Assembly: GCA_018398765.1 (NCBI GenBank)
Contig: JAHBMJ010000134.1
Span: 1-55,649, forward strand
From: Chromera velia
Lineage: Eukaryota
DNA: 55,649 nt
Direction of reading: 5' to 3'
A model generated the notes under the pieces. That model saw only the letters and a program-made list of their open reading frames with translations. It did no database searches and had not been told where the DNA came from. A program made the position numbers and the translations under genes. Below, in pieces: positions 8,333-48,500 of the stretch. The first letter of the stretch is position 1. Every line of letters starts with the position of its first letter.

Positions 8333-8576
8333 AGCAGTTTGCGAAGCCTCGTCCTCTCCCGATTCCCCCGTGTGTGCGTGTAAAAAAGAAACATGTAGAC
8401 TGTGAGCGAGAGGATGACAATGAGAAAGGAAGAGTCCCGAAGTCGCAGGTTTCTCAGTCGCCTGTGTCCTTCCCTTCTCCGGCAGAGCATGCAGACAGAC
8501 AGACCGACTTTGAACAAGCAAATTCAGAGAAAATGGAGGCAGAGATGGCGCAGTAAAGGTCGGTCCCAGGCTTTTC

Positions 8577-11500
8577 GTGACAATGTTGCTGTTTGGTAAG
8601 CCTGTGTCTGTCCTTATTGACACAGGAGCGGAAACTTCGTTCATTGATGTGAATATGACCTTGCATGCTGATGCAAATGTCGACAAGCCCACGGTGGGTC
8701 TATCTACAGTGGGACAGATGGGCGTGTCGGTGGTGGGGGAGATTACGGCCAAGTTTTCTCACCTTTCCCTACCTAAAAAAGTATTCCCACACCGCCTGAC
8801 CATCACAGAAGACTCGGGGTATGAAGCAGTCTTGGGGCAAGACTTTTTGAAGCTGTTGGACCCAGTAGTACAGTACCACTACTGTGAAGACCGTCTGAAC
8901 ATTGCGGACCTCCCCTCCTTCAAAGTCTGGTTCGAGGATGGGAGGAAACCGATGCGTGTCTCCGCCTTCACGCGCATGAAAGTCCCTAAAAGAGCGAGGG
9001 CTCTTGTGTGTATGCAGGTTGAGGGGATGGAAGGGGAGGAGACGGTCATTTTGAGAAGGAATTACCCGAGGAGGTTTCCGGAACTTGCCATCCCGGACCA
9101 AGTAGTAGACGTCAAAGCTAGAGTCGCCACAGTAGAAGTCATGAACATCGCCACCAACCTCATTCGCCTAGGACCGAATTCACTCCTGACTTTTACAGAG
9201 CCGTTCTCTCATGTGTCATCCGTTGCAGCAGTCATCACCAACGCTCCTGCCTCTGCCTATACACAGCAACCGCCGATTCCCAAGAAAGAAGACTCGCCTG
9301 TCTCTCCCCCTCCCTCGCAGAAGCTTCCGCCCGTGGATCTCTCTCACCTGTCATGCGAGTTGAGGGAGAGATACGAGGGGGTCCTTCAAGAATATTCCGA
9401 TCTCTGGTCTTGCTCTCGTTTCGACATTGGAGAGCTGAGAGTGGATGGAAAGCCTTTCGAGGTGACCATTCCTACTGGAGATTCCCCTCCCATTCGCTGG
9501 AACCAAGACAGAATCCCGTACCACCAGAGAGAGCATATGAAAAAGGAGTTGCAAGAGGTGGAAGAAGGGGGAGTGATTCATCCCTCCACTTCTCGATGGG
9601 CCGCCCCAGTCGTTCTAATCAAGAAACCAGATGGGACGACCCATTTCTGTCTAGATTTCCGCAAACTAAATCAAGCCACCAAGAGAGATCTTTTTCCCCT
9701 CCCCCAAATTCAAGAGACACTCGACCGCCTTGCAGGAGTCAAGGTGTTTTCAGCACTTGATTACACCTCTGGCTTCCAGCAACTCCACATGTACCCCGAC
9801 CACGCAGAGAAAACCGCCTTCGTCACTCTGTTTGGACTTTACGAATTCACCAAGATGCCCTTTAGGTTGGTGAATGCCCCTTCTATTTTCTAGAGAGCCA
9901 TGAATTTGGTTCTTGCAGGTCTGTTCAGAGACCTCGCTCTCGTTTATGTCGACGACATCATCGTCTTCAGCCGATCTCATGATGAGCACATCCAGGACTT
10001 GAGGGAGGTTTTGAATTTGGTGAGGAAAACAAATTTGAAGCTCAAACTCGAGAAGGCACAGATTGCCATGACAGAGGTAGAGTATTTGGGACATACGGTA
10101 TCAGAAAAGGGGGTGAGACCGAGCAGAAAGAACATCCGGAAAATTCTGCAGTGGGAGCCACCGCAGGACAGGAAGGAGCTCTGCTCTTTTCTGTATCTGT
10201 GCTCCTACTACCGTCATTTTATTGCAGGTTTTGCTCGTCTCTCCTTCCCTCTCTTTCAGATGTTGCTTCCTGCAGATGAGCAAGGCAGACCGGTCCCGTT
10301 TGTTTGGAATGGAGAAAACGAGGAAATTTTTGGGGAGTTGAAAGAGAGGCTGACGACCCCTCCGATTCTCGGCTTCCCAGACATGAGCCTGCCATTCAGG
10401 GTGAAACCTAGGGTGAAACCGAACCTAGAACCGGATGCATGTGAAGTGTCTGTGGGAGGCGTGCTCACGCAGATGCAGAAGGGAAGGGAAGTGATAATTA
10501 CGTACGTCAGTAGGGGGTTGAGTGTGGCAGAAAAAAATTATAGCCCCACCAAGAGGGAGGCCTTGGGGGCTGTCTACTGCTGCAAGCAGTGGAGGCATTA
10601 CCTATTTGGGGGGGCAGTGTATGTGATCACGGATCACAAACCGAATTTAGCGATGTCCGACCACAAAGTAGCGAACAAAAGGGTACACAACTGGGCGTTG
10701 GAGTTGCAAGAGTACAGGTTGACGTTCGTTCACAAGGTGAGAAAGGAACATGTGGACGCAGACGCCGTTTCATGACAGCCACAGCCTCCCCCGTCTCTTC
10801 CTGTCTCCGTAGATAGCGGGGTCCCTTTATGCCATCACTGCAATCAGCCTGCTGACGGTAGCAAGGAGATTCGATCTAGCATGGCTGCCGCCCTGGCAGG
10901 TATGCAGGCAGGTGTGTCCCCTTTACAGGTTGAGAAGGGCTTTCTAGACCATGTGAAGGAGGAGTTGCCGAGAGACCCCTTGTTGAAAGATCATTTCAAA
11001 TACTTTGCAGAGGGGGTATTGCCTTGGGAGGCAAAGAAGGCGAAGCAAATTCTGTTGGAGGAAAGTGCATTTGAAGAGAGAAGAGGTTTATTATACAGGT
11101 ACGAAGGAAGGGGGACGGAAAGGAAAGAACAGTTGGTGGTGCCTGAGGCGTGCAGAAAGACGGTTTAAATTTTGTGATGAATCACGATCACCAGTTGGGG
11201 GGGTACCCAGGGGCAAATCGGCTGACAGAGAAGACTCTCCTACATTTTTGGTGGCCAGGTTTGAGAGCAGACGCGAGGGAGTGGGTCGCTTCCTGCCGAG
11301 AATGCAGGGAGAGGCTCAAACCAAAAGCAAAAAGAGCACCCCAGACTGTGCCTGTGCCTCCCCGTCCTTGGCACACGCTCGGCATTGATGTGTCAGGGCA
11401 CTTTCCCACGAGCAGGAGGGGAAACAGATTTGTGCTCGTTGTGACAGACCATTTTGGAAAGGACGGGAAAGGATGTGGAGACGTTTGCCCGCCCTAAGCT

Positions 11501-23522: not shown

Positions 23523-25362
23523 GGCAGGCAGGCAGGCAGGCAGACAGACACACAGACAGACCGACAGACAGACACACAGACAGACAGGCAGACAGACACA
23601 CAGACAGACCGACAGACAGACAGACAGACAGACAGACCAGGACGCGTCCCCAATTGACAGAGTTGACGCTCCCCAGAGGAACCTCAGAGGCAAATTGTGA
23701 GTCTCCGAACAGATCCGCCACCGTCTCGTCGAGGCTGTCTCCCCCCAGGGGACACGCAGAAACTCCCACAGCGTGCACGTTTCCTCCCACTGAAGGTGAC
23801 GTCACACAAAGAAAAAACATTAGACAGTGGGAGTCTCAGGCAGTCGACAGAAACGAAAGGATCCAACGACGGAGACAGAAAGACAATTTCAATCGACAAT
23901 GAAACAGAGGTACGTATGAATGAAAGGGCACGTGCAGATCTAGAGGAAGCACCGACCAACCCAGAGTGGTCATCTGTCGCTCCTGCTGTTCCGAAATCAG
24001 GCCCTTGGGGTAGAGGCACCAGCAGTCGAGGGCTTGCTTCCCCTCACACGCAAATGCGGCGGCTGGCCCAGTGTCCCCTGCAGAGACACCAACAGCAAAT
24101 CAGCACTCATCCCGTGAGCCAACCATTCCATTTTCCTCACCAATCAATCGATGAAACCGGTCGACAGAGGAGACTTGCGAAAGAGAAGGGAGGCAGGAAG
24201 CAGGGAATGAAAAACGGAAGGGGGCGAGACAGGAAGAAAAGCACCAAAGGAGGAAGGCGGCAAGAAAAAGGTAGATAGAGAGAACCCAAGAATGGAGCAC
24301 GAAAGCGTGTTTTGTCAGCACTGCTGCTCATCACCACACTGAGGTCCCGCAGAGGCACGCAACCTCCCTCCGCCCTTCCACCCACCCACTGTTCCACCCA
24401 CCGGTTGTTGCAACCATGACGTGTCTTCTCTCTCCCCCACCCCGTCTTCTCAGAAAGAAGTCCATCACGTTGCAGAGGAATCCCATAGCCAGCTGCGAAG
24501 AGGAACGCGCACCCACGCAAGAAGGAAGAGAGGGACAATAGTGGAGGCACGTATGGGCATATGCCTCCGAGTGGGGACTTTCCTGTTACGACCCTCCATG
24601 CGGCAACGATGCCTTTTCATCTCTTGCGGCTCCAAGATTTCTTTTCAACAGCAAGGAACGGAGAAAGCTTTTCTGTTCTCTTCTCTTCTGTTCTCCTCCC
24701 TATTTCAAACGAGTCGATCGAAACCTGCAGAGCTAGGCGAACTTTGGAAAAGAGAGAGTTGGAATCAAAACACGGGAGCAAATCGGTAGGAGACAGAGAG
24801 AATCCGTGGCGACAGAGAAATACACACCCGCTTGTCCGTTCTATGCAAGCGAATTCTCGAATCCTTCCGCCCATCAGGTCCATGTCTCCTCGCCTAGATG
24901 GCTCGACTGACTGACGTCCTTGAATGCCAGCGTGGGACCGTGGAACAACTCCACGAGGAAAATGCTCCTCTTTCCCGCCCCCTCTCTTCCTTCTGCTTGC
25001 CTCATTCTCTGGAGATCTGCCTCATCGTCAAACAAGGCCTCGAGGGGAATCTTTCTAAGTTTCAGGGGAACCACATCATCGCCATCCTCCTCTGCTTGAG
25101 GAAAGTGTCTGTAGCTTTCATCAATCACTTCCCTCAGCTCTTCCCTTGACATCTCACGGCTGTCCACGAAGAGAGAGACGATCTCTAGGGCCAGAGAGGT
25201 GAAGGATAGAGACTTCCATTTAGCCAGCGTCTCCTCGGACACTTTTGGGATGGTCTCTGGAACGAAGTAGCCTCCATCAGATGCGAAGCCCTGAAGAATC
25301 GCCTCCTCGAAGGAAGAGTAAAAGCCCTCTCCGGGGCTACTATTTGTACTTGTGTACCTCAT
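18539..25362 (-). CDS. thrC: Threonine synthase (PLP-dependent), 11 exons, 593 aa predicted
   Basis: Exons 25362-24916, 24492-24402, 24077-23961, 23789-23638, 23123-23000, 22477-22401, 21824-21756, 21216-20995, 20780-20660, 20365-20160, 18694-18539; all GT-AG with consistent phases (1782 nt). Motifs: [62 protein letters not shown]. Confidence 0.93.
18955..19937. repeat. Intronic minisatellite, 14 units of 61/72/73 bp
   Basis: The CGTGG(G/A)TGCT motif starts at 18963, 19024, 19097, 19158, 19231, 19304, 19377, 19450, 19511, 19583, 19655, 19727, 19799 and 19872; lies in the last intron of threonine synthase. Confidence 0.95.
23420..23637. repeat. (CAGA)n microsatellite in a threonine synthase intron
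   Basis: Tandem CAGA/CAGG repeats starting at the splice donor of exon 4. Confidence 0.9.
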
Positions 25363-26389
25363 CGGAAAGTGGGAGACACACTGTGGGGCTTTCGCCTTCC
25401 CGTCTCTGCAAGTCAGGCGGAGACGGCGTCAGCTGCTGGCCAAGACTTTCAGAACAGTGGAGTCAAATTGAAACTCATGCAGCGCAGAAGAGGTTGTCTG
25501 CAGTCAGCAATTTCAATCTGACTACGCATTGCGAAGTCCACAAGGGTGATTGACAATACTTGACGTTCGGATCATTTTTGATCCTCCAAAGATTTTTGGT
25601 GTGCTTCATTACTGATCCGTCTCTCCAAAAATTGCAGCTATAGCTCGGCAGAGCTCGGCTCCATGCAATCGGCGGCGGCCAGGTGCGGGCCTGGCTAACG
25701 GGTGGGCGGGCCGGCCTACCAACGGTAACCAACCGCGGCAGGTTCCGTTGGCCAAGAACAAATATCTTAAAATTTATTTCCTCAAAAAAAAATTAATTGC
25801 CCTCCATCGTTCATTTCTGATCACTGTTTTTAGGTGCACATGAAAATCAGTGAAAATTCAGAAAAATTTGAAAAATTGAGTGAAAATTAATTGGTTTCAA
25901 ATAAAATTATTCACTTTAAAAATGCCTAAAATAACACAACAAAATACATTATTTGATTTAACAATCTTGAAAAATGTTTTAATACACCCAATAACTTTCT
26001 TTTAATTTATTTTTTCTATTTTTTATTTATTTTTACTACTAGTTTTCTACACGTGCGTTAGTTCTTTGTGTGTTGTCTTGAAAACTGTTTTAAAGAGTGT
26101 AGTTAGCCTTTATAAGCTTTCAACAGCTCTTCTCGCCCCGTTCAAGCTGTGATGCACGCCGTTCAAGCTCTTAAGATACGATAACGTATACAAACATATC
26201 GATTAAAACATGTTCAAGGGATTATGTTCGCGTTAGTTCGAGCTGCGCGTATACCCTATTCGTACACTTAAACAGACTCGACAATCTATCTTCAAATTGG
26301 ATCTCTTCATTGCAAGTCAATCGGTTAGAAGGCACATCATCTGAACTTTCTGACCATCTTCGACTGCCAGTGACAGCGCGCCGTATGGA

Positions 26390-28396
26390 TTATTGCCGAA
26401 TAGTTTGAAGAATCATTTTGACAGCAGCCTCGACACTGTCCCGAGGCCCTTGAACGAGAACCTGTCTTTTCCCCTTAGAGGAGGGGTCTCCTAATATCTG
26501 AATCTCAGCCTTCGACCTCTGACGAATGCTCTCAATTGTCGACCCACCCTTTCCTATCAGCTTGCCAACAGCCTCGGAAGGAACGGTAACCACGGTTGGA
26601 CTGTCGAAAGAGGAGGCCCCTCCATTCTCCTGCTGCTTCTTCGATTGACTCGTCCCCCCCGCCCCTGACGCTGCGTCCCCTTCCCGTGACGTCACAGGAC
26701 CTCTGACAGTCTGTGCGGTTGACGGCGAACTTGGAGAGTTGCCTGACGCACGCGGCTGCGTTTTCCCTGTAGAAACGTCTGCCGTCTTCTTCATCTTGCT
26801 GGAGACAGCGGGCGAAGGGGGAGACAGACGAGACGAGGATACCTGCAAGGCATGCAACGAACTCATCTCAGCGGCCCTTGCTTCTCTCAATGCCCCCCCC
26901 CGCACTGATGCGGAGGCTGCTGCTGCTGCTGCTGAAGGGGCGGGGCTTGCTCGTTTTCTAGGTCTTCTGCTCATGAGGTCGATCTGTGTTTCCACAATTG
27001 CAAGCACGGCCTCTGCGTCTTCCAGAGGGTCGTGGATCCCTTTCTGAAATTGGGGAAATCGGCCTCTGACTGCCGGTGAGTCTTCTACGAGACTGCGCAA
27101 CGACCGCGGTTTTCCAGTCTCGGGATGGGGTAGGACGAGGGCGGTGTCGATCACGTGTGACTCTACTAAGGGCCCCCAGAGACGGAGGCCAGCCAGATCG
27201 TGCCACACAGAGTGACCAATCAACACAGTGCGCTCTGCAAAGCAAACCTCCTCAGACAAACGTCTCTGCACTTCTCTCACCTCTACCAGGCCTCCAACCT
27301 CCTTCTTCAACCTTTCACTGTCGAGACCGTGGATCTCGGTCTTCCACTGGTGCAGCCCATCAGGACCTGTCTCAAGCCACTCTCCGTTGGGGTCGGGCAC
27401 TACGAGCATCCCGCGGATCAGCTCTTTCTTTTCCCGTCGTCCATCTGCATACACATCCAGTGCTACCGCACTCACCAACACCACCCGCTTCTCACGGGTC
27501 TGCCTGTGCTCAATCATCTCGCAGTCAAAGGCCAGAAGCCGCAAAACAGGACGTCCCCCCCTTTTTTCTCTGTCCAGACTCTGGTCACGTGACCCTCTCG
27601 CCTCTCCTTCTCGACCTGCCCCTACCTCCTCCTCCCAGGGGTCCATCCAGTCAGAACCCCCTCCTCCCTGGGAAGAAGAGTCACCCCCCGCCTCTCGAGG
27701 AGGGGCAAGTGCCTTTCCGAAACGGGTGGCAAATTCCGGGTGGTGTGCTGTCCGAGCACACAGGGCACTTGCGAAGAAAGCAAAGTCGACGCTCGAGGCT
27801 GCTGCGGCTGCGGCCTCGACGCGACGGCTGTCTGTCGGCATGTACCTGCTGTCTTTTCCCACGACAAACACACCAGGAGGACTCCCCCCTTCCAAACCTG
27901 CAGCTGGGTCGAGGGTACTTTCTCTGGCAGAACAAGAGTGCTCTGGTCGGTCTACAGGATCTCTGCTCGTCTGGGCTCTCTCTTGGGCAGAGGGCTCCCT
28001 CAAAAGTTTAGGGAGACGGAGAGAGAAGTTTTTCTCCCTGTCTTTCAGCCAGCCCTCGCGTCCCCGATTGAGGACAAAGACAAGCTTCAAGATGGTTAGG
28101 TCCCGTGGATAAGAGAGTCTGACTGTTTTCTCAGCCGAAAAGGGCGTGTCGGCGCATCCATCCTTCACCTGCGTGTGGGGGTAGGTCTGAATCCGAGCGG
28201 GGGGGGCTTCCCAGTTCGTCTGGTTTTCTTGCTGTATCACCCCCCAGTGGAGAATTGGGCTTTCATGTCCAAAGCCCTCCACTGCATGGATGCCAATGAC
28301 TACATTCTTGGAGTCAAAGCGAACTGCAGCCTGCACGACTTTCCCGTCACAGTCCCATCGGATGTGGTTGTGACCAACCAGAAGAGGAGACGGCAT
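26390..28396 (-). CDS. Fusion protein: CBM45-like starch-binding domain + DEDDh 3'-5' exonuclease + KH domain (668 aa, intronless)
   Basis: N-terminal ILHWGV..WEAPP..DTPF..LVFVL..WLKD..NFSL; central AFDCEM, LIGHSVWHDL, VIDT, HDPLEDA; C-terminal VPSEAVGKLIGKGGSTI with a GxxG loop. Confidence 0.85.
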   Translation of the reverse strand: MPSPLLVGHNHIRWDCDGKVVQAAVRFDSKNVVIGIHAVEGFGHESPILHWGVIQQENQTNWEAPPARIQTYPHTQVKDGCADTPFSAEKTVRLSYPRDLTILKLVFVLNRGREGWLKDREKNFSLRLPKLLREPSAQERAQTSRDPVDRPEHSCSARESTLDPAAGLEGGSPPGVFVVGKDSRYMPTDSRRVEAAAAAASSVDFAFFASALCARTAHHPEFATRFGKALAPPREAGGDSSSQGGGGSDWMDPWEEEVGAGREGEARGSRDQSLDREKRGGRPVLRLLAFDCEMIEHRQTREKRVVLVSAVALDVYADGRREKKELIRGMLVVPDPNGEWLETGPDGLHQWKTEIHGLDSERLKKEVGGLVEVREVQRRLSEEVCFAERTVLIGHSVWHDLAGLRLWGPLVESHVIDTALVLPHPETGKPRSLRSLVEDSPAVRGRFPQFQKGIHDPLEDAEAVLAIVETQIDLMSRRPRKRASPAPSAAAAAASASVRGGALREARAAEMSSLHALQVSSSRLSPPSPAVSSKMKKTADVSTGKTQPRASGNSPSSPSTAQTVRGPVTSREGDAASGAGGTSQSKKQQENGGASSFDSPTVVTVPSEAVGKLIGKGGSTIESIRQRSKAEIQILGDPSSKGKRQVLVQGPRDSVEAAVKMILQTIRQ

Positions 28397-30462
28397 CTTT
28401 AAATTTGTGTGAAAAATTAAGCCGGGAGATCATCAATCAGTTCCTCTAAGCTCCTCTGAGCAGCAACGTGGACTGTGACTTTTCGGACGTCTCGGTCAGA
28501 GATCTCTCAAATTCTCAGTGACTGAGGCTCATCTATGATGAGCCCCATTTTTAAGGAGAATCATTTTGGAGTCTGCATCATCAACGAGAATGAAGAGAGC
28601 GCGAGTGGCTCGGCAGTTTAGCTCGGCGGTGCTCGATCGCGCGGCGCGTGCAGGCCGAGCCATGCAGGAAGATCCATGCATGCATGCAGCTGCATGAGTT
28701 AAATCGTGTCGGTCTGCAATCGGTCTGCATGACAATGATTTGACTCTGACAGATCATTGGCGTTGAAGATCGTCTTTTGTGTGGACATTCGATTTTCCGA
28801 CAGTCTGTGCTCTAATCACCTTCACATGGAGGACAACTCATCACCATTTTTTGGCTACTTGCGTTTTTCAGCATTCCCGGGCACCGAGATTTTTTGAATG
28901 AATTCGGCGTCTCCTGTAAGTTTGTGACTGTGCTAATTTGTTGAGCGTTCTGCTATTTGTTTCATGCGGTAGCCTCAAGACTGATTGACAATCAGCTGGG
29001 TCAGAAGGGCTCCACGTACCCGCATGCAGTCGTCCACAGGGGCTGCGGGCAGTCGAGGCTTGGTGGAGGATGAGGTGAGATGAGGAGACGGCATGCGTCT
29101 ACTTTTGAGCGTCAATAGAAAAATCTTCCGAAGTACGTACGTCCCGTCGACACGTCTTCACGCTGTATCTGCAGGTGGACTCTATCAGTCGTATTCACTG
29201 GGAGACTGTGAGACAATTTTTGTACGAAGTCGGGGTTGGAGACTTGGAGCAGGAGACGCTGAGATGGTGCGTCAGTCTGTTAGATTAGTCAGAGGATGCC
29301 TAACTCCAGTTGGAGCGCTAAGCTCCCGGTCTGGTGTTCTACGGGCTTGTTTCCTGTTCCCCTTCCACTTTTGCGCCCTTTTGGAAGGCAGTTCTCCGTC
29401 ATGTCTTTTCTGGCTGTCTTTTTCTGTGTTTCTGTTTCCGTCTCTATTTGTTTGTCAGCATTTCTGGAGTTCGTACAGTCCGCCTATCTGAAAGTGGTGA
29501 TTCTCGGAATCATCCGAGATATTATCGGGGGAGCAGACGAAGGATCGCACAGCGTATCTCTGCCTCTTCTTTCCTTCGGTCATCGGTTTTGATTTTCCCC
29601 GCGTAATCTTTCGAACCGGTTGTGAGGAAACAAAAAGTCATACAGTCGTCCGTCCGACTGTCCCCCCCTCTTTCTCACTCTCTCCCGACCTCCCTGTTCC
29701 CCCCCCCCTCGATTTCTCACCAACTACTTTTTTTTTTTCTCTGTCAATCCTTCCACGTACCTACGCATCTGTCTGTCTGTCTCTCTACTTGCCTGCCTGC
29801 CTGCCTGCCTGTTCGTGAAGAAAAGAAGGGAAAGAAACCGTATAGCTTGTCTGCCTATCTGCCTGCCTGTCTATCTGCCTCCCTTCCTGTAGAAAGAACC
29901 ATATTGGTTGTCTGTCTGTTCGCCTCTCGGTAGGTCTTCCAAAGAATATCTCTTAGTTTCTCTCCTCCCGCACCTCTCTCATGCGCCTTCCTCGGTATGG
30001 ATGCTTGCAGTGTGAGACAGATTTTGGAAATGGAGCTTGACGCTCCCCTCAGAAATTACCGTCAGATTAGCGGGATCAGTACACAATCCTCTTTTTTTTT
30101 GCGATCCGGCCCTCAGAGACTCCTCTCAAGCCTCGATCGATATCTTTTCACCTGGCCCTTTGCTCAATCTATCCACGCATGCTTTTCCTCCTCTATTTTC
30201 GAAGAGGCCTGCCTCCCTCACCTGCCTGCCCTCTCCGTCTCCTTTTCCTGAACGTCACCCCCCTCACTCCCCTCCACGTGCTCACATCCCACACAGTGCC
30301 AGAGGCTCAGAGGTGGAGGGATCAGGCTCCATTTCTCTTCCGTTCTTCCCGTGCATTTACCGTCTCTCTGCCTCCCCCCACCTGTGAACCGTCTTCATCC
30401 GGCCGGTCTCCTTTGATTTGGTAACACAGGTCGTTGTTTTCCCTGACCTCTCTCCCGTGCAG

Positions 30463-31855
30463 GAGACCTCGCGCGCGCCGTGCGCAGAACGAGCGAGAGG
30501 GGTGCAGCATCTGCTCTCGCTCTGCGCCGGTCGAACTTGCCCGACGACTTGCACACAGCCTGCTCGAGTCTTCTGCAGGTGCTGCACACGCTGGTGGAAC
30601 AGCAGCCCCCCCCAGAAGCCGAGCGGCAGGCAGAGGATCCGACAGGGAGGGGACTCGGCCCGGGGGGAGAGGAGGAAGGCTTTGAAGTGGCTGACCTCTT
30701 TGCCGCGCTGAAGCTTCAAGAGGAGTGGGAAGCCGAACTACAGAGCGAGGAGGTGGCAAGGAGATTGCAGAGAGAGGACGACGTGAGAGCAGGAACGGAG
30801 GCTGCTAGAAACGTGCAGAGAGAGGAGGAGGAGGCAAAAGCATCGGAAGAGACTGCAAGACGTCTGCAGAGAGAGGAGGACGCTACAGAAGGGGAAGAGA
30901 CCGCGAGGCGTCTCCAAAGAGAAGAAGAAGAAGCTCGGTCTTCGAGCTCAACCACCCCTACACCATCGGAAGAGACTGCAAGACGTCTGCAGAGAGAGGA
31001 GGACGCTACAGAAGGGGAAGAGACCGCGAGGCGTCTCCAAAGAGAAGAAGAAGAAGCTCGGTCTTCGAGCTCAACCACCCCTACACCATCCGCAGCAGCC
31101 TACGATGGTCAGCATTCAGAACTCACTCCCGAAGAGATGGAGTCTGCGCAGAGGCTGTTGTCGCCTGAGCAGAACGCAAGTCTGAGGAAGATCCGCAATG
31201 GGGGCGCCAGGCCCGTTCTGGGCGTTCACAGTGCCGAAGATGTCAGAGTTTTGGTTGCCCACACTGTTCTCTGGACACTCCAGAGACGGGTGTTCGGGGG
31301 CTTCGTTCGTGACTGGGTGATTGGCCAACGCAGTGCGTCCACTGATATCGACGTGCTTCTGCATGACGAGGACGACCCGGTAGAGATGGCCAATAGACTG
31401 ACGGACGCAGTAGAGGCTGCAGGGGTGCGTTCGAATGATGTCATTGTGCGCCAACCGTTGCAGAGGGGTATCGCTCACAAGCTGGAGATCGTTTGGGCAG
31501 GTGAAACGATAGAGGTTGACCTGGTCAGACCCTCTGACCGTCCTCGGAGTCTCCTCCCTTTGTGGACAGCGACGCGAATAACTTGGTCGTGGACCGATTT
31601 GGCGTGCAGCTATTGGAGAGGGTGCGTGTGTGCGGAAGGCCGCTGCCTGACGTGTTGACCAGCGCTCTCCATGCACACCAGAGAAGTTTCATCTTTTTTT
31701 ACCAACTGAACGGAGAGATGGCACGCGGGAGGCTGCGAAAATTTTGGGAAAAGGGGTGGGTCTGTCTGAACGACATTCCGTCCCGCGAGGTTCCCTCGCA
31801 TTCTGACCTCTACAGGCCTGAAGCGAGGTTCTCTCGAGAGAAGTGGTACACCTAG
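30463..31855 (+). CDS. Repeat-containing class II nucleotidyltransferase-like protein; last exon, one frameshift near 31545
   Basis: VFGGFVRDW (31290-31316), DIDV (31344-31355) and EVDL; homology to ORF 50637-51470 continues in the -1 frame (ORF 31562-31855: DSDANNL...FIFFY...RLRKFWEKGWVCLN). Upstream exons are probable (ATG candidate 29024) but unresolved. Confidence 0.75.
30841..31086 (+). repeat. In-frame 123-bp (41-aa) tandem duplication
   Basis: 30841-30963 is repeated at 30964-31086; each copy encodes two EETARRLQREE motifs. Confidence 0.95.
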
Positions 31856-37292: not shown

Positions 37293-38910
37293 TCACTTCC
37301 CCATCTTGTGGCCCCTCCCCCCCTCGTTGTGGCGGGGCGTGGAGAAGATCGTGGAGATGCCCTCATGTGTCAGAAGCCACTCGTACCAGACGTAGTGCTT
37401 GTCGTCGCAGCGCCAGATGCTGAAGCTGCACGGGGAGAGTGGAAGGGACAGAGACGCACGGGGATACGTTCAAATTTCAGGAAGGGAGACAACCCGAAAA
37501 AAGGAGGGATGCACTGTTTTTCAGTCTGTAGAAAAAAAAGGAAAAGACGGGCAGGCAGGAGGAAGCTGGCACGACAGCAATGATGCCTGTGTTCGTCTTT
37601 CTTCATTCACTGTCCTCTTTTCACTCTTCTCCACCCCTCTCCCCACTTTTCCGCCCCCACACTTCATTCCCGCTTTTTGTGGCCGAAAAGCAGTTAAGCA
37701 TGCACCAAGCCAACCTACTGACGTAATTTTGTCGCCCTTCTGGACAAAGATCGGCTCCATGATGGGAAAGAAAATAGGCCACCAGGAAGCCATATCCTGG
37801 GTGTACGTCTCCTTCACAATCGAGATCGCAATAGGGCCGTACAGATCCGCGTAGAAGTACCCAGCCATGCCGTGGACCACAGCATCGATGGTCATGGTGA
37901 AGTCGACTTTGGTGTGTCTGCGGTTGTGCGCGTTCGAAGGGTCGATTTTCTTGTTGGGGTAATGATCAAAGGTGAACAGAGGCTGCGCACCCTGTACGGC
38001 GGGGAAGTAAGCGGAGTGGATATAGACGACGAGGGGAGTCTCGAGGAACTTTTCTCCCAGCTTCTGCAATCATGAATGACACAGGAAAAGAGGGAGAAAA
38101 CAGTAGGAGCAGACAGAAAAAAGAAAAAGTAATAGAGACGGTGTCAAGCAACCCCGACACGAACCCTTTTGCTTTCCTCATCGGGACGGTGCCCGACTGC
38201 GGGAAAGAGGCAAACACGACGACAGACGACAAAAAAGAGTGGAGAGGTCAACAAGACGCTCAATGCCGGGAGAAGAGAGGTCGAGCTAGAGCTGCACTCT
38301 ATCTGAGACTCCCCTTCTAAAATGCATGACCCTGACATCACTCGCGTGTTCCTTCCCTTCCTCCGTTGCCCCCTCCTTCCATGCTCTCTCCAGCTGCCTG
38401 GCACTGTCTGACCGACAAACCTTGGCGTCTGTCCAGAGCTTCGTGGAGGACACGGGACGGGCGTAGGACACGGAGCGGTGAGGGATCGAGACACCCCCTT
38501 CCTTCAGGAGTCTCTGCGCACCGTCGAGACACTCAGGGGAGAGTTCGTTGTCCCCGAACGAACCCAGGAGCTCTGACACCATGATGTCGGCCTGCTTCTC
38601 CAGATTCACGTTCTGTCTCATGTCGGAGCTGACAATCTCGAGCTTGCTCCAGAAAGGACACTCTGCCTCGAGTTTCTTCTTGTCCGTCAGGGTGATCACG
38701 GCATTCGGGTTCTTCTCGAGGGCCACGAGCTTGATGTTCTGCACGCACGTAGATTGGTGAGTGAAGACTTGAATCAGTACAGGCCCGTTGAGCTCGGCCA
38801 GATGAAAATTGGTAGGCATGGCTCTCTCTCTCTCTCTCTTACTTACACACACACATACACACAACGACATGCACACACGCACACATGCACGCACACATGC
38901 ACGCACACAA

Positions 38911-38989
<79 letters not shown>

Positions 38990-40186
38990 GAGAGAGAGAG
39001 AGAGAGACGCCTGCAGTAAAAGAAGAAACAGGAGGAAAGGCACACACAAAAAAAGAACGTACCACCAGAAAACCTCGAGAGTGAAATACCAAAGAGCTAC
39101 ACTGAATGAATGCTGCAGGGGATCGGAACGGTTGCATGCCAGTGGGAGCAGCAAAGCATGATCCCGTGTTCACAATACGTACAGCTGGGCACACATTCAT
39201 ACGGATAGGATCTAAGGACATTTATTCAAATCAATCGCATTCAGACCGACCTTTGTGCTCATCTCGACTTCTTTGAGGGCCAGGATACAGGCAGTCACCA
39301 GAGGCCCCCTTCCCGCTCCCACAACGATCAAGACCAGAGGCCCTTCCTCTCCCGTCCTCTCCAACACCTTCGCTTTCAGAGTCAACTTGACGGCCACTTT
39401 GTACCGCTCATACTTGACGTAGTCCATCTCGAAGACGGAGTACACGCCAGACTCGAGGTTGTCCTGCAAGGAGGAAAGGAACAGAAAACAAAAAGAATGT
39501 ACGGAAAACGCGAGGAAAATTGACATCAACCGACAAGCTCGAACGCCCGCACACGCGCATGCACTTTTTCTCTCTCACGCACACAGACTACATCGTTTCT
39601 TCTTTTGCTTTTTCTCTTTTTTCATTCTCTTCTTTTTTTTCTTTTTTCTTGTGGCGCGCTCTCAGTGGAAGGGTACCAGAGCTCCGGGCCTTGAGCGTAC
39701 CCTGCTTGCCCAGTGCAGAGACAGATAGACAGACAGACAAAGACACAGAAAGAGAGAAACAGACAGACTATATGTTTCTTCTTCTCCCTTCTTTTCTTCA
39801 TGGACACAATAGACAAAAGAAAGAAAGCAACAAAGACAAAGGAACATCACGACAACTCAGACAAAGTGGGCAGGGGGCCCGAAAGGTGAGAGTTAAGCGC
39901 CCCTTGCCTCTCCACCTCCCGACAGACTTTCACGTGATCACTGGTTTCACACGCTACTCCTCTGCTGCTTCCACTCAAGACAAGAAAGAGAAGAAAAGAA
40001 AACAAGGCAAGAAAAACCAACAAAAATTAAAAATGACAACAAAACGAAAAAAGAAAACTGCACGTGGGGACCGGCACCGTCATGTTCTTTAGACAGAGGT
40101 GGGGGGGTGGGGGGGCGTCCCTGACACAGACAGACAGACAGACAGACAAAGAAAGACACAGAAAGAGAGAAACAAACAGGCAAGCA

Positions 40187-40227
<41 letters not shown>

Positions 40228-41592
40228 GCACACGCGTGCGCGCGCACACACATGCAGAGAGAGCGCGGGCGCGGAGAGGGGCGAAAGGGAAAGGAGGAGG
40301 ACATGCATACAGACGTGACAGGCAGGTTCTCGCAGGAAAACCGAACACAGCTTCTTGCAATGGTGGTGTGCGAAGGAAAGAACAACCGGACGGCCATTTC
40401 AGATCGGTGTGAGTGTTCAAAGAAGGCCGAGGAGTCTGGAAGAAAAACCCACCGCCAGAGGTTGGAGGGGGGGCTGCAGGCAGTTCTGGTCCCTGTGCCC
40501 AGCCCTCTCGACCAAGTCGAGTTTCTTGATCTCGTTCCACAGCTTCTGGATACAATATCTGTACCTCTCAAAGTTCCGGACGTCTTTGTCTTGTGCTACG
40601 TCAATTTGCAAAAGCAATATTGCTTTTTGCCGCAAGAAGCGGTGCACAACCTGGGTGTGACGGTCCGGAAGTTGGGGGCACCCGTGGGAGTTTTCAAAGA
40701 AACAATCAGATGGAATGATCACTGCGGTGACTTGCTCTGACCACCACCGATCAATATAGGGGAATGCAGGAAGCTCTTTGGTCATCACCAACGCAACGGA
40801 CAAATTCTGCAGGTCACCGCACTTGTCTTTCATGCTGTTGTAAACATTCCACCCGTCACACGTGTCCTCACTGGTGCGCCCCTGCTCGAGAACGCGGCGC
40901 CGTTCTGTCTCGTTGTCTTCGTCAGAAAGGTTCGAAAAAGAGGCCAATGCAGCCGCAGCACCGTTCGCGGGGGCCGGCACATCTTCCATGGGGTGCCTCG
41001 ATTCGGCTGCTGATGCTGCTGTTGGTGCTGGGGAGGGGGGGGGGCTTGCCGCTGGGACTTGCGGATCAAGGCCGCCGTCAAAGTGTTGGGGGTCCATGGT
41101 GAAGGGGATGCGGAGCCAGACTCTGCACTGCTGGGCGGACTGGGTGCTCAGCACCCCGTGAAGGGCATCTGCGTAGCGTTTACAGTCAACGCTGTCGGGG
41201 GTCGGCAGAATGCATGTATACATTCCCCAAAACGCTGCCAAGTCTATCTCCTCTCGGAGGGCGTCAGCGCTGTAATTCTTGAACTCTTCGGACACCCTGT
41301 CGGAGTCTGTTGAAATCCAGGAGGACACAACACCGACACCGGAACCCGCCCTATCCTTTAGGTCCACATAATTAGTAGAGGCTGCCAAGTCATATTCGCT
41401 TGGCAGGTCCTTCCCATCCTGCTCCAGGCAGGGAGGGAGCTTTGTCAAGGGAAAGGCCACAAAGTCCAACTGTTCCTCATCGATGTGTTTTTGCAGGTCC
41501 TCGGGCTCATTGAACCTGTCGATCTGTCTTCCGAGAAAGCAGATGTCGAGCTCTTGCTTGTTATCATCTGCATCAAATTTTTGGATCGGCAT
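37293..41592 (-). CDS. PRMT5: Protein arginine N-methyltransferase 5, 5 exons, 714 aa predicted
   Basis: Exons 41592-40453, 39463-39251, 38738-38421, 38063-37723, 37425-37293 (2145 nt, phases consistent). Motifs: LQPPLQPLADNLES, VVGAGRGPLV, EKNPNA, SELLGSFGDNELSPECLDG, SWWPIFFP, VWYEW, HNEGGR. Confidence 0.95.
38820..39007. repeat. (CT)n/(CA)n/(GA)n microsatellite in a PRMT5 intron
   Basis: Dinucleotide runs read directly. Confidence 0.9.
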
Positions 41593-42577
41593 TGCTTGTG
41601 CAATCCGCAAACAACTACGAAAAACCTCAAACCAGCAGAAGGTCCATAGGAGGAGACGCGAATGACGGTGGGCAGTTGATGAGTCGACAGGCAAATTCAG
41701 AGACTTTTCACATGAAGGTGGTCAGCGATTAAGGGAAAGAACTTCAGATCTCAAAGTCCCTTGAACACGGTCCATACCCTTGTCTTTGCAGAGTTGAAAA
41801 TACTTGAAAGACGTTGAACAGATTTTCCCAGTGCTGCTGAAAATTTCGGAGGCCTGATGAGGCCTTAAAGGTGAGTGAGAGACCTTGGCGAGGTTTTTCT
41901 TCCTTCGTTCTGTCGAAACTGCTCCGATCGTTGGCATTTTGAAGAGACGCGGTGAGGGACCACTGAGGGTCCGGCCCGGTCCGCGGCAAATTCATGCAGA
42001 GGCCCCAGTCAGGACTAGTCAGGACGTCAGCTATAGGACCATATGGCCTCGCTAAGTCTGCGCACCGCGCGGCCGCGCGGCCCTCGGCGCCCTCGAGCGC
42101 CCCGCGCCGCCCGCGCGGCATGCTTAATTCGGGGCCATTATAGGATACACTGGGCCAGAGCGAGAAAGCATGACTGGAGGCGGAGAGGGAGATTTGGTTC
42201 TGGCCTTGGAAGTCGAAGACTGCCTGGCGCTGCACCCTCCTCTTAGAAACAAATCTTCTTAGAGCTAGAGGAGGTTGACAATGTGCTGACTAAATTGATC
42301 CATTCTTCTTCTCGGTCATTGATGCAGCGTACAGCTACATGCTTGGTAGAAGTTCTTCTCCTCCTAGCATGAGTCGGTTTTCCACCTTGGCCTCTTTTTC
42401 CTCATTAACTAGTACTGTATGCCAGAGGTTTTTTATCCAGGACCACTCTAGGGAGTGGGCCAATCGACTGTATGCATGATCAGATACGTAGCGTGCAGCG
42501 GGTAATACCGAGCAGTTGCGTGATACATGTGTATGGGGTGGAGGTACTACCCAGATGGGCAGATGCTCCCATACCTC

Positions 42578-43190: not shown

Positions 43191-45579
43191 ATGGACTCCG
43201 AAAAGATGGAAGAGGAGGTGCTCACCTATCTGAGAAGGCAGACCTCTTCTCAGACGCAGCTTGACTGTGCCTTGAGAAAGCTTCAAGAATTGCAAATCTT
43301 CACGTCTGCAGACCTTGCTTGTCACTCCACAATTGTCTCGAACATTTTGCGCTGCTCGGTAGATGATGCCTTCGCTGGCTCTGCGCCAAATGGCTGCTAT
43401 GCAGCTCCAGAAGTGCACGCCGAGTCAGTCACCCACATTCCCACGGCCTTGAGCTCTGGAGGCCAGCAGGAGGGAGTGGCGACTCGTTTTTGTTCTCCTC
43501 TGCCCTCCAGAGGTCAGGCCGAAGGAGAGAACACCCGCGTTCCCACCCCTACTGACTCAGGTCACGGCAACCGTCTCCCCACACATCAGCCAAGAAGCCA
43601 TGTAGAAGCTGCCGCTGCTCTTGTTACTTCGGCAGGCCAGTTCGCTGAAGTGCTCTCCTCTCTCCCGCCCCACGCCGCTGCCGGGGCGCTGCTGGTCCAT
43701 TCCGGACCCGGGTTCTGTGACGTTCTTCTGCCTCTTGAGAGACGCGATAGGAGCATCCGTCCCCTCGTTCACGTTTTTGGAGGGAGGGTGGAGACGGTCG
43801 TTCAGAAGGGGAAGGGGACAGTGCCTGAGTCTGCTGCCACCACTGCATCCCGGGAGTTGGTGGAAGAACTCGGGTGGGACAGACACCTCCCTTCTCACGC
43901 TTCCCACAGTGAATTTGTGACAAGCATCCTCGGACTGCCGTCTGCCAAGAGCCTCCGCAAGCCTTTCGAGACTGCATTCCAGAAACTTCCTCGACTGATG
44001 GTCATTTTTCAGGAAGACGGGCGGTACGTGCTCTTCGTCCTGAACATCTCCCAGGTGAGTGCATCTCTCCAACAATCCATCATCAGCGCTCCCGCAACGC
44101 ACAGGCGCTCGATCGAGGTGGAGGCCCTCGCGTGGGTGCCTGTGGCTTCTCTCCTTGAAGCAGAGAGAGGACGTCGCACCAACCTCGTGGTAGAGAGCAG
44201 ACCGAGCTGGAGTCTCTCGACGCCCTCTGTCTTTGAGATGTCTGCCTTTCTCCAGAAACTGTTGCAGAACACTGCAGTGACAGCAGCCCTCGAAAGCCAT
44301 ACCGGCAGAGTCCATCGTCCCCCTTCAAGTGCGACTGCTGCATCGGTGAGTCCCTTTTTAATTTTCTCCTGCTCCTTTTTCATTCCGCCCTTCTTTGTGA
44401 CTTCCCTCCCGCTCCTTTTCCTCTTCGTCCTCCTCTTTTCTGCTGTCACTGTCATTTCTCTGAAATCTGCTTCTGCTTCCCTGTCAAGCACGAAGCCGAC
44501 CATGTATGCACCCAGTGAAATTCCTTCCACCCTTCTTCTCGACCAACGTCCCCTGCAGAGCCACGTGGCCGCTATGGGGGCAGGAGCAGAACCCCAACAG
44601 AGAGGCCATCCCCGAGTTCCTCCCCTCTCTCTGCCCTCCAACACAAACGTTACGCGGGGAGCAGAGCCTGCAGACAGCGCACTGACCTCAAGGACGCTGA
44701 CCGCTCAGGACACCGAGAGAATGCTCACTCAGCTGCCTCTCCGCATTCCCACTGCAGGAGCACCCACCCAAGAGGTGGAGGAGCCTGAGGGGAAAATGTT
44801 CATCGCCGCCGTCGTTGTCAGGTGCGCCCTCCCCTCCAGAGGCGCGAGTGCCTCCTCGTCTGCTGACTCCTCGAGTGTGCATCGCTCCTTCTCACCCCCC
44901 GAGGTCGAGGTCCTCGTCCGCGTGGCACCCCCTCCCGATGCCTCCCATGACGGCAGCGGGCTTCCCGACCGCGTGACTCCTGTGCTGAGTGTGATGCACA
45001 GCGTGTTAGACACCGAGAGCCGCCCCTGCGACGACGTCCTTCAGGCAGCCGCGGTGGGCCATGTGGATGACGTCCTGCAACAGCACGGGGTGGGGGTGGG
45101 GTCTGAGGATGTGGTGACTGCCAGCTTTCCTGTGAAGGATCGCCGGCAGGGCCTGTTTGCTGTCGTGCAAGTGTACCCCTTCTCTCCGGGAAGTGCTGGC
45201 CCTGGTCTGCAGGACAACTCGGGGCTTGTGTGGGTGCCCCTGGAGGCCCTCTGCGCAGTCGCACACGACGAAATCAAGGGCTTGCGCCTTCCCACTTCAC
45301 AGCTACACCCCTCTGTGAGACGGCAGCAGAGCGGTGAGGGAGGGGGGCGGGTCGTGTGCCGTCCTGACTTTCTTGCCCGCAAAGTGTTCGGAATGGGAGC
45401 GGTGGGTTCACGTGTGGTGGAGTTTGCGTATTTCGGGCTGGAGAGTTTCTTCGCCCAGCAGGCCGAAGCAGAGCTCCGTCGCCTCGAAGCCCTGCGAGGT
45501 GACTCCCTGATTCGTGAGCTTGTGGGAGACCCCCGACAGCTCTGGCTAAAGCTCCAGGCTCCCCCCCCTCCCCCCCCCC
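43191..45579 (+). CDS. Nudix hydrolase domain-containing segment
   Basis: FGGRVE(insert)PESAATTASRELVEELG at about 43776-43874 matches the Nudix box; downstream EVEALAWVPVASLL is a typical Nudix strand. Confidence 0.8.
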
Positions 45580-48500
45580 NNNNNNNNNNNNNNNNNNNNN
45601 NNNNNNNNNNNNNNNNNNNNNNNNNNNNNNNNNNNNNNNNNNNNNNNNNNNNNNNNNNNNNNNNNNNNNNNNNNNNNNNNNNNNNNNNNNNNNNNNNNNN
45701 NNNNNNNNNNNNNNNNNNNNNNNNNNNNNNNNNNNNNNNNNNNNNNNNNNNNNNNNNNNNNNNNNNNNNNNNNNNNNNNNNNNNNNNNNNNNNNNNNNNN
45801 NNNNNNNNNNNNNNNNNNNNNNNNNNNNNNNNNNNNNNNNNNNNNNNNNNNNNNNNNNNNNNNNNNNNNNNNNNNNNNNNNNNNNNNNNNNNNNNNNNNN
45901 NNNCCCCCCTGCAGTTGCTCCCATGACCTCTGCATCGGACCCTGACTGGTCAGAGTTCCAGAGACACAAGAACAAACTCCCAAATCCAGCTGCCGTAGTT
46001 GGGGGGTGGAAAGTGCGAGTGGCTAGTCAGGAAAAAAAGGTACAAGGAGGCGGAGAGGAAGGCACAGGGCGACAGTTCTGCCAAGCAGCTGGAGGTCTAC
46101 CACGGGACTCCAGACACTTGGCGTGCCCAGAACATTGCCTATAGTGGGTTCAACACCGGCATCGCCCTGCATGGACGCAGCATGGGTGACGGCGTGTACA
46201 CAGCCCTCAGTCCCGCAGTTCCGTCTCAGTTTCAGAAGGGGAAGGGGTCGATTCTCGCATGTCGTGCCTTGTGGAAGCAGGGGGACGCAAAGAATGGGGA
46301 GGTTCGAGTATTCAGACAGGGGGAGAGAGTTCTTCCGAGATTCATCTTTGACTTCGCTGCACTGGACGCACAGGGGCGGCAGGTACGCGCGTGCCCCCTT
46401 CTTCCTTCCTGCCCTTTTTTTGTTTTGTTTTGTTTGACGTTTCACGTCTTGCACTTTTGTCGGGTTGCATGCCTGTCTGCCTAGCTGTTTCACTGTCTGC
46501 TGATATCCATCTGTTTGTTATCTATCTGTTTGTTCCAGTGTGTGTTGATCGTTGGTTCCTTCTTTCAAATGTTGTCTAAGCGTCTGCCTGTCTATGTGCT
46601 TGCTTAGTTGTCTTCTTGGTTTTGCCCTCCCCTTCATCTGCCTGTCTCCTGTTATTGCTGTCTGGTTGTTCGGTTGGTCGCTTTTGCGTGGTCCACTCTC
46701 AAGGAGTGTCTCCTCACTGTCTACCAGATCGACGCGAATCCATGAGACAGGAAGGACTGGTTGCTCCTTCGATGGTACTTCCTGGCTGTTGTTGTCGTCA
46801 ATGCCCTAGCTCTCTTTGTTGTCTCAAGCCTATTTCTGAAGACAGGGGCAAATATCTCCGTTCGAGACAACCCATGGAACGAATCTTTGCTCCCTTCTCC
46901 TTCCTTCAATTTTCGTTGCGTGCAGGTCCGCTCGAGTGCTGGCGAGACGGAGGAGGAGAAGCGGAAGATGATGGAGGAGATGGTGCGCAGGCATGAGCGC
47001 CTGAAGCAGCTTGCCGCAGCCGCAGAGAGGGACGGCAAGCAGAAGCTCCTCAGTTACTGTCAGAAAAACGTGCAGACCGCACGACAGTGTCTGAACGACC
47101 TGAAGAGGGAGACCGATGGATGCCGAGACGATCTGGCAGCCTCCCGACGCAGGCTGTGCCTCCGGGCAGCTCAAGAGATCTATGAGCTTGCAGCGATGCT
47201 GCCAATTTATTCAATGAAGAGGCAGATCGTTGACATTCTCAAGCAGAGCACCGTAGTGGTTCTCTCCGCACCGACAGGCAGTGGCAAAAGCACCACTGTG
47301 CCGCAGTGGATGCTAGACCATGTCCTCCCTCTCCCATGCAGGCGAGCTCCTGAGTCTGAGTCTCAAGTCTCCGCCCTCACACCAGGCAGCCAATCAGATC
47401 CCTCTGATCCCCCTCCGCCCCTCTCCCTTCCCTCCATGCCCCACCGCAAGCTCGCAGTGCTACAGCCGAGGCGCGTGAATGCCAAGTCTCTGGCCCAGAG
47501 AGTAGCGCAGCAGCGTAACGCGAAAGTCGGTCTGGGGTCCCAGATTGGGTACCGTCTCGGTTTTGGAGACGCGATGTCCACTGCCGGGCAGACCGAGCTA
47601 GAGTACATGACACATGGCGTCTTCATCCGCATCGCACGAGATCCCGTCACCTTCTTCCGCAACTACTGGGGGGTGATTGTGGACGAGGCCCACGATGAGA
47701 GCACAGACCTCGAGGAAGCTCTTGCTCTTGTCCGCAGGCTTTTGTGGTTTGCGCGAGACTCCTCGTTTGCAGCAGAGGCCACCAGGCAGCCTCCCGAAGA
47801 GGCTGCTGTTGGAAGAGAGGAGGGGGGGTTGGGGGAAGGGGACTCTGCAGTGGCAGAGAGGGAGAGAGAGAGGGATCGTCGGAGAATGGAGGAGTGGGAG
47901 AGGCAGTTGGAAATTGCGAAAAAGAATTTCAAAGTAGTGGTCATGAGCGCAACTATTAGCTCCCAGGGGATGCATCGGCTCCGAGATTTCCTTCTCCAGG
48001 GTCTCCCGTCTTCCGAACTCCGCAATGACCCCCAATTTTCTCAGATTGTTCAGTGTGGAGAGACAGGTCCCAATCCTGTCTCCCACTGTTTCCCCGTGCT
48101 TGATGAATACAGGGACGAGTGCGATCCCGGCCTCGGGCCGAACGACCACGTGAATTTCCAGACAGCCGCGGGGCTTGCAGACATGGGTATGGAGATCGCG
48201 ATTGAAATGCTGCAGAAGCCGAGCGAGAAGGGGCACATTCTCGTCTTCCTGCCGTCCGAATCCCTTGTTCGTCGCTCTGTTCTGACGGCGAGACGGGGGC
48301 TCAACTACAAGCCTCCTCCTGGTCAAGGGGGAGGTTTTCTCTTCCGATTCGGTCGCCTTGCGCGTGCCGTCAGGCGATTGGTAAAGCGGGGGGGGGAGGA
48401 GAATGATGAGGAGGGTGGTGAGGAGGACTCGTCTTTTGCAGTCGACCTAGGCTCAAGGGGGTTCGAGGGGAAGCTTGAGGGGGCTGGGGGGAACAGTGTG

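What the first reader, a model, noticed from the sequence alone, without database searches (positions are those of the whole stretch)
26390..28396. Starch-binding module fused to an RNA exonuclease and a KH domain
Seen: one uninterrupted 668-aa ORF with a CBM45-like pattern (LHWGV, W..PP, TPF, FVL, WLK, NF), a complete DEDDh catalytic set (DCE, HD, H...D) and a GxxG KH domain. Established: CBM45 occurs in alpha-glucan water dikinases and plastid alpha-amylases; REX-type DEDDh enzymes trim RNA 3' ends. Inference: a ribonuclease tethered to, or regulated by, storage-polysaccharide granules would link carbon storage to RNA turnover. The lack of introns in an intron-rich neighbourhood hints at a retrogene/chimeric origin.
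Basis: partly seen in the sequence, partly recalled or inferred. Interest (0 to 1): 0.75.

Follow-up and report, generated by a model that had tools for sequence, protein, structure and literature searches.

The report
Starch-binding module on RNA-trimming enzyme
One gene of a single-celled eukaryote joins a starch-binding-type module to an RNA-trimming-type enzyme with an RNA-binding tail, which would likely tie RNA turnover to stored carbohydrate, but we found this fusion in no other sequence and RNA-like contigs of what is likely a second isolate carry a stop codon that would disable it.

Summary
The 668-aa ORF (26390-28396, minus strand) has three parts.
- CBM45-type module: Pfam PF23166, 46.7 bits against a cut-off of 27, with all five signature aromatics.
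- DEDDh exonuclease: D291, E293, D400, H455, D460; SDN1/PAN2/ISG20-like by profile and fold.
- KH domain with GxxG.

The exonuclease-KH part is not a one-off. It matches a scattered protist family (pelagophyte, diplonemid, marine metagenomes) that I found in no paper, and residues ~196-668 look like a whole member. Only the CBM45 is added: 0 of 50 exonuclease relatives carry it. It is only 23-33% identical to its nearest relatives, so it is probably old and was conserved.

RNA-like contigs (one study) cover 1934 of 2007 nt with no splice joint. None bridges a 5-nt gap in the linker. They carry 15 substitutions, including a stop at codon 446, before catalytic H455/D460, in 3 of 3 covering runs. 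The gene therefore looks dispensable or decaying in at least one lineage. The retrogene argument is weak.

Best reading: a real, lineage-specific, probably starch-tethered 3'-5' RNA exonuclease, with function untested. New variant of a known kind; moderate interest.

The parts
26390..28396 (-). Single-exon ORF, 668 aa (P0001): CBM45 - linker - DEDDh exonuclease - linker - KH
   Evidence: no splice joint in RNA-like contigs covering 1934 of 2007 nt
28007..28396 (-). CBM45-type starch-binding module (aa 1-130) with W51, W62, F86, W116, F124
   Evidence: Pfam PF23166 46.7 bits; ESM Atlas features 0.96, structure TM 0.74-0.81; aromatics
27794..28006 (-). Linker (aa 131-201) holding an internal Met186 and a poly-Ala run. 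Inferred fusion junction, and the place where RNA contigs break (27802-27806)
27701..27793 (-). N-terminal motif of the exonuclease-KH family (aa 202-232), marking the likely start of the ancestral protein
   Evidence: HMM from 13 relatives, P0001 excluded; 0 of 1000 linker shuffles reach the score
26957..27547 (-). DEDDh 3'-5' exonuclease domain (aa 284-480): D291, E293, D400, H455, D460
27059..27061 (-). Codon 446: Arg in the window, a stop codon in RNA-like contigs of 3 of 3 covering runs
26393..26599 (-). Type I KH domain (aa 600-668) with GxxG loop
   Evidence: Pfam KH_1 E 3.1e-17; fold matches hnRNP K KH3 and PCBP
28397..28501 (-). Likely 5' untranslated region, continuous with the ATG in one contig
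   Evidence: X4 contig 28329-28501
26219..26389 (-). Likely 3' untranslated region
   Evidence: X1 and X2 contigs 26219-26400 and 26263-26635

Best explanation
This is a single-exon gene in which a CBM45-type module sits in front of a whole-length protist DEDDh-exonuclease-plus-KH protein; the product likely docks weakly on cytosolic starch granules and likely trims 3' ends of single-stranded RNA held by the KH domain. Shown: the domain order, the catalytic and glucan-binding residues, family-like sequence over aa ~196-668, and absence of the CBM in the relatives found. Inferred: KH captures RNA and the two-metal DEDDh site removes nucleotides 3' to 5', as in SDN1/REX/PAN2. The low-affinity CBM45 would reversibly park the enzyme on granules when starch is plentiful and release it when starch is consumed (a basic cluster at aa 477-482 could be a nuclear signal). 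The gene seems dispensable, since contigs from what is probably another isolate carry a nonsense allele.
For: CBM45 match above cut-off with all five aromatics, although identity to the nearest repeats is only 23-33%. This fits long selection for glucan binding. A profile of 13 relatives built without P0001 aligns aa 196-495 (140.6 bits) and 601-665. With a query lacking KH (aa 1-490), 12 of the 14 best exonuclease hits carry a Pfam KH; overall 16 of 50 carry KH and 0 of 50 carry PF23166. Catalytic residues are invariant in 14 of 14 relatives. Two contigs run from inside the CBM past Met186 (aa 104-194 and 109-197), and no joint is seen in the ORF. There is no hydrophobic N-terminal leader (maximum hydropathy 1.05 in aa 1-40), which fits a cytosolic or nuclear location. 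Chromerids keep starch in the cytosol (bioRxiv 10.64898/2026.09.25.754361, passages), if the host is one. A potato CBM45 is a low-affinity binder (Kd 0.4-0.7 mM for beta-cyclodextrin; PMC6243121, passages).
Against: The fusion is a singleton: one cluster member, no other hit near its length, and none among 1.84 billion representatives. A stop at codon 446 appears in 3 of 3 covering runs. Selection signal is weak: 7 synonymous and 8 non-synonymous differences against 25% synonymous expected, p = 0.053. The window allele departs from family consensus at H349, Q350 and I393, where the contig allele is closer to consensus. No contig bridges 27802-27806. In the tree P0001 is a long branch between the exonuclease-KH clade and REX1-like proteins, not nested in the clade. 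Host identity and starch storage are inferred, not tested. No binding or activity data exist.
Confidence: 0.5

Rival explanations
1. Decaying gene: the fusion once worked or was tolerated, but is now under relaxed selection and has no current role in linking starch to RNA.
For: Nonsense allele before H455/D460 in 3 of 3 covering runs, and 8 of 15 differences are non-synonymous. The window allele has non-consensus H349, Q350 and I393. Divergence is 15 in 1934 nt against 1 in 790 nt in the transcribed threonine synthase exons (Fisher p = 0.051). The fusion is a singleton.
Against: In the window all catalytic residues, the GxxG and the five aromatics are intact in a 2-kb open frame. No indels are listed in the contigs. 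Synonymous changes are still about twice the neutral share (47% against 25%). The contigs come from one study and could be a single clone with a private null allele.
Confidence: 0.27
2. The CBM is not part of the working nuclease: translation from Met186 or a separate transcript yields the ordinary exonuclease-KH protein, and the CBM frame is an upstream neighbour that happens to be in frame.
For: Met186 lies just before the family's N-terminal motif (aa 202-232). Contigs break at 27802-27806. A stop-free 65-codon linker has about 9% chance by base composition alone.
Against: The CBM frame has no stop of its own. Two contigs run from inside the CBM past Met186 to aa 194-197. The break lies in a trinucleotide Ala repeat at low depth. 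No joint is seen.
Confidence: 0.1
3. The fusion is functional but not a carbon sensor: the CBM45 serves only as an anchor to a granule surface or another glucan, or the nuclease acts on single-stranded DNA or granule-trapped nucleic acid rather than regulating mRNA.
For: KH domains in the best structural matches bind ssDNA as well as RNA, and RNase T matches are DNA complexes. Named relatives come from a pelagophyte and a diplonemid, groups that by recall store beta-glucans rather than starch, so the core works without starch.
Against: The closest solved relatives by profile are RNA enzymes (SDN1, PAN2, ISG20L2). The CBM keeps the starch-binding aromatic set.
Confidence: 0.13

Closest known systems
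CBM45 of alpha-glucan water dikinase GWD1 and plastid alpha-amylase AMY3 (Pfam PF23166)
   Same: Profile above cut-off, predicted fold (TM 0.74-0.81), five aromatics, N-terminal position on a flexible linker.
   Different: Single copy rather than tandem. Attached to a nuclease rather than a glucan enzyme. Only 23-33% identical to the nearest repeats, which are from bacterial-type GWDs.
Arabidopsis SDN1 and the REX1/REX4/PAN2/ISG20 group of DEDDh 3'-5' exoribonucleases
   Same: DEDDh residues, DCEM and GH...D motifs, fold. SDN1 (5z9x) is the best solved nuclease match by profile. SDN1 also pairs the nuclease with a C-terminal RNA-binding domain (an RRM; recalled).
   Different: KH instead of RRM, no Pfam RNase_T hit, an own N-terminal motif, and a CBM45 in front.
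Unnamed protist exonuclease-KH family found here (e.g. KAJ1454143.1 Pelagophyceae sp. CCMP2097; Lacrimia lanifica EP01063 P020858)
   Same: N-terminal motif, exonuclease (about 25-36% identity) and C-terminal KH in the same order.
   Different: Relatives are mostly 330-460 aa with no CBM; some carry other N-terminal additions (DUF1810, a weak WWE). P0001 has longer linkers and branches at the base of, not inside, the clade.
Toxoplasma CDPK2 (CBM20 plus kinase)
   Same: A starch-binding module on a protein that is not a glycoside enzyme (PMC9691885, passages).
   Different: Different CBM family. CDPK2 regulates amylopectin metabolism itself; here the partner acts on nucleic acid.

Membership tests
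CBM45 (PF23166) | Profile match above curated cut-off | tested here: met
   46.7 bits against 27
CBM45 (PF23166) | Five aromatics W,W,F,W,F | tested here: met
   W51, W62, F86, W116, F124 aligned with 8 CBM repeats; consensus from PMC7569903
CBM45 (PF23166) | Ig-like beta-sandwich fold | tested here: met
   Atlas model TM 0.74 and 0.81 to PF23166 clusters, predicted against predicted; my single-sequence model was unusable
CBM45 (PF23166) | Binds starch or cyclodextrin | not testable with these tools
   needs pull-down or calorimetry
DEDDh exonuclease (REX/SDN/PAN2 group) | Exo I D-x-E, Exo II D, Exo III H...D | tested here: met
   D291, E293, D400, H455, D460, invariant in 14 of 14 relatives; H455 and D460 lost in the nonsense allele
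DEDDh exonuclease (REX/SDN/PAN2 group) | DnaQ-like fold and profile | tested here: met
   SDN1 E 4.9e-21 by profile; ISG20L2, Pan2, ISG20 by Foldseek
DEDDh exonuclease (REX/SDN/PAN2 group) | Pfam RNase_T (PF00929) match | tested here: not met
   no hit at E up to 1; most KH-bearing relatives also miss it
DEDDh exonuclease (REX/SDN/PAN2 group) | 3'-5' activity on RNA | not testable with these tools
   needs an assay
KH type I | Profile and GxxG loop | tested here: met
   62.5 bits against 21.5; G615-K-G-G618
Protist exonuclease-KH family | N-terminal motif + exonuclease + C-terminal KH in order | tested here: met
Protist exonuclease-KH family | Nested in the clade in a tree of exonuclease domains | tested here: inconclusive
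   long branch between the KH clade (97/89) and REX1-like proteins (99/92); 46 of 52 rows, midpoint root only
Retrogene | Intronless copy with an intron-bearing parent, poly(A) remnant and target-site repeats | tested here: inconclusive
   no parent found (no genome held). One A-rich tract 350 nt downstream is one of 9 such tracts in the window. No clear flanking direct repeats.

The most novel reading that the evidence does not exclude
A starch-granule-tethered RNA exonuclease works as a carbon-reserve switch: granules hold the enzyme through CBM45, and starch breakdown frees it to trim or degrade KH-selected RNAs. This would be a direct one-protein link between storage polysaccharide and RNA turnover, built on a so far undescribed protist exonuclease-KH family.
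Probability: 0.22. Interest if true: 0.8.

Novelty: new variant of a known kind. Interest (0 to 1): 0.5.

Why it matters
Starch-binding modules are known on glucan enzymes and on a few regulators of glucan metabolism (CDPK2, laforin). My searches found none on a nuclease. If the protein binds granules and cuts RNA, it gives a direct, testable route from carbon reserves to RNA decay in organisms that store starch in the cytosol, with a natural null allele as a ready control. The exonuclease-KH family itself is scattered over distant protist groups and did not turn up in the literature search, so it is worth naming even if the CBM fusion is a dead end.

Tried and rejected
- No whole genome is held, so paralogues, a CBM donor and the host's starch pathway could not be searched directly.
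- Single-sequence AlphaFold of the full protein was unusable (mean pLDDT 39).
- ESM Atlas on the full protein gave no feature hit and only KH-level structural matches with TM under 0.35.
- The word-indexed protein search with the family alignment returned few members.
- Locus scans with P0001 in metagenomes and P0004 in viral contigs found nothing. These reach close relatives only, so a viral source is not excluded.
- No run is on record as RNA. X5 and X6 laid nothing. Neither is evidence either way. Contig depth was not used to rank expression. The uncovered stretches 26658-26685 and 28289-28328 are not evidence.
- RNA editing as the cause of the stop is disfavoured because the 15 differences are of mixed types; it needs DNA of the same strain.
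- A near-identical paralogue as source of the contigs is disfavoured (one-member cluster; neighbouring genes also differ) but not excluded.
- Recent retro-chimera rejected as the leading reading (see membership test).
- Earlier-findings look-ups gave nothing on this genome or sequence and only unrelated fusions.
- Supplements of the bioRxiv chromerid starch paper were not seen; its tables might list this gene.

Full report
Observation. The ORF lies on the minus strand at 26390-28396 and gives 668 residues without a stop. Pfam finds PF23166, the Ig-like N-terminal domain of alpha-glucan water dikinase 1, at aa 21-127 (46.7 bits, cut-off 27) and KH_1 at aa 602-664 (62.5 bits, cut-off 21.5). That PF23166 corresponds to CBM45 follows from PMC13553574 (passages), which names the N-terminal GWD1 domains CBM45. 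The ESM Atlas agrees by features (0.96) and by predicted structure (TM 0.81 to a plant alpha-amylase). The five aromatics listed for CBM45 in PMC7569903 (passages) have counterparts at W51, W62, F86, W116 and F124.

Exonuclease domain. The middle domain has no Pfam hit. It matches SDN1 by sequence (E 1.2e-4) and, through a family profile, SDN1 (4.9e-21), PAN2 and ISG20 proteins. A model of aa 283-668 (mean pLDDT 74) matches ISG20L2, Pan2 and ISG20 and hnRNP K-type KH domains. All DEDDh residues are present and invariant in 14 of 14 aligned relatives.

What it is. A search of 1.84 billion representatives with aa 1-490, which lacks the KH, gave 54 hits besides the query. Four match the CBM only. 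Two of these are full-length proteins named alpha-glucan water dikinase, one of them in a cluster with deltaproteobacterial members. Fifty match the exonuclease only. All 54 were scanned in Pfam: 16 of the 50 carry a KH, including 12 of the best 14, and 0 of 50 carry PF23166. Named members come from a pelagophyte and a diplonemid; the rest are unnamed. An HMM from 13 relatives, built without P0001, aligns aa 196-495 and 601-665 and finds the family's N-terminal motif at aa 202-232 (0 of 1000 shuffles reach the score). So aa ~196-668 is a whole exonuclease-KH protein, and the CBM45 plus a ~65-residue linker is the addition. Some relatives have other N-terminal additions: DUF1810 in P0002 and P0044, a weak WWE in P0012.

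Tree and uniqueness. The tree is less clean. With 46 of 52 rows (6 dropped because they lack a recognisable first motif), P0001 is a long branch between the KH-bearing clade and REX1-like proteins, and the root is not known. The fusion itself is a singleton. Those searches have length and sensitivity limits, and no sister-species genome could be searched. The CBM is only 23-33% identical to its eight nearest repeats, and bacterial genome hits are 25-34%. No recent donor is visible, so the retained aromatics suggest long conservation rather than a fresh copy.

Transcription. No run is on record as RNA. Four runs of one study hold the stretch, and their contigs are spliced at GT-AG introns of both neighbours, so they behave as RNA. 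Listed pieces cover 1934 of 2007 nt of the ORF, plus both untranslated ends, with no joint or indel (78 shorter pieces were not shown). Two contigs run from inside the CBM to aa 194-197, past the internal Met186. None crosses 27802-27806, in an Ala-codon repeat, so one continuous mRNA is likely but not shown.

The nonsense allele. The contigs differ from the window at 15 ORF positions: 7 synonymous and 8 not (p = 0.053 against 25% expected). One difference makes codon 446 a stop in 3 of 3 runs that cover it (depths 2.8-5.8, one study). This would remove H455, D460 and the KH. At three other sites (349, 350, 393) the contig allele is nearer family consensus than the window allele. The transcribed threonine synthase exons differ at 1 of 790 nt (Fisher p = 0.051). 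The simplest reading is a second isolate with a null allele, and weak present-day selection. DNA of that isolate is needed to exclude editing or a paralogue.

Origin. The retrogene hint is weak. Longer stop-free frames exist in the window. A relative is single-exon on 28-35 kb contigs with no CBM in its flanks, though in a gene-dense genome where neighbouring genes also look intronless. An A-rich tract 350 nt downstream is one of 9 in the window. I infer a chromerid-like alveolate from about 50% GC, long repeat-rich introns, presence in UniRef and EukProt and 14 copies of TGCATGCA (its link to ApiAP2 factors is recalled). This was not tested.

Mechanism. Shown: architecture and key residues. 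Inferred from family knowledge: KH binds single-stranded RNA, and the DEDDh site trims its 3' end, as SDN1 does for small RNAs (PMC8957957, passages). A potato CBM45 binds alpha-glucan weakly (PMC6243121, passages). Chromerids keep starch in the cytosol (bioRxiv 10.64898/2026.09.25.754361, passages), and the protein has no hydrophobic leader. The likeliest working model is reversible parking of the nuclease on granules, possibly keeping it from the nucleus (basic cluster at aa 477-482) until starch falls. I give this 0.5 as a description of a real tethered nuclease and about 0.2 for true carbon-state regulation. Rivals are decay (0.27), an anchor without regulation or a DNA substrate (0.13), and an unfused product from Met186 (0.10).

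Novelty. Searches for CBM45 with starch-binding or nuclease, for starch-binding with RNA terms, for DEDDh with KH, and for Chromera starch papers listed no paper whose title or abstract start describes this fusion or the exonuclease-KH family. I saw listings only, except for the passages cited. The chromerid preprint has no occurrence of CBM45 or exonuclease in its main text; its supplements were not seen. A CBM on a regulator has precedent in Toxoplasma CDPK2 (PMC9691885, passages). Verdict: a real, apparently unreported domain combination of known parts, seen once, with a null allele in other contigs. New variant of a known kind, interest 0.5.

Noticed in passing
P0002-P0025, P0031, P0044, P0100; L001-L004: An apparently undescribed family of DEDDh exonucleases with a conserved N-terminal motif and a C-terminal KH, scattered over distant protists (pelagophyte, diplonemid, marine metagenomes); some carry DUF1810 or WWE-like N-terminal additions.
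   Followed up: partly
window 24000-25544 (-): Downstream neighbour is a spliced threonine synthase (Pfam Thr_synth_N; introns 24077-24400 and 24493-24915).
   Followed up: partly
window 28808-30500 (+): Divergently transcribed spliced gene (introns about 29073-29172 and 29266-30009), head-to-head with the fusion gene; a weak poly(A) polymerase head hit at 31137-31655 may belong to it.
   Followed up: no
window 28380-28396 and 29078-29094: A 17-nt sequence covering the ORF's start codon recurs (16 of 17 identical) 698 nt away, in the first intron of the divergent gene; may be chance.
   Followed up: no
window 25641-25660 and 28600-28700: Both intergenic promoter regions share GCTCGGC repeats, and the upstream one has tandem TGCATGCA palindromes (14 copies in the window), recalled as an ApiAP2-type motif.
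   Followed up: partly
window 8514-10775 (+): Ty3/gypsy-like retroelement remnant: aspartyl protease, reverse transcriptase and RNase H split over two frames.
   Followed up: no
window 38286-41721 (-), 43191-45926 (+), 46968-50570 (+): PRMT5 exons, a 911-aa ORF with no Pfam hit, and a 1200-aa single-exon DEAD/DEAH helicase ORF.
   Followed up: no
L011-L019; P0018, P0032: The nearest relatives of the CBM are CBM45 repeats, mostly tandem, in uncultured Nitrospirota, Desulfobulbaceae and Scalinduaceae genomes; P0018 and P0032 are full-length GWD-like proteins.
   Followed up: partly
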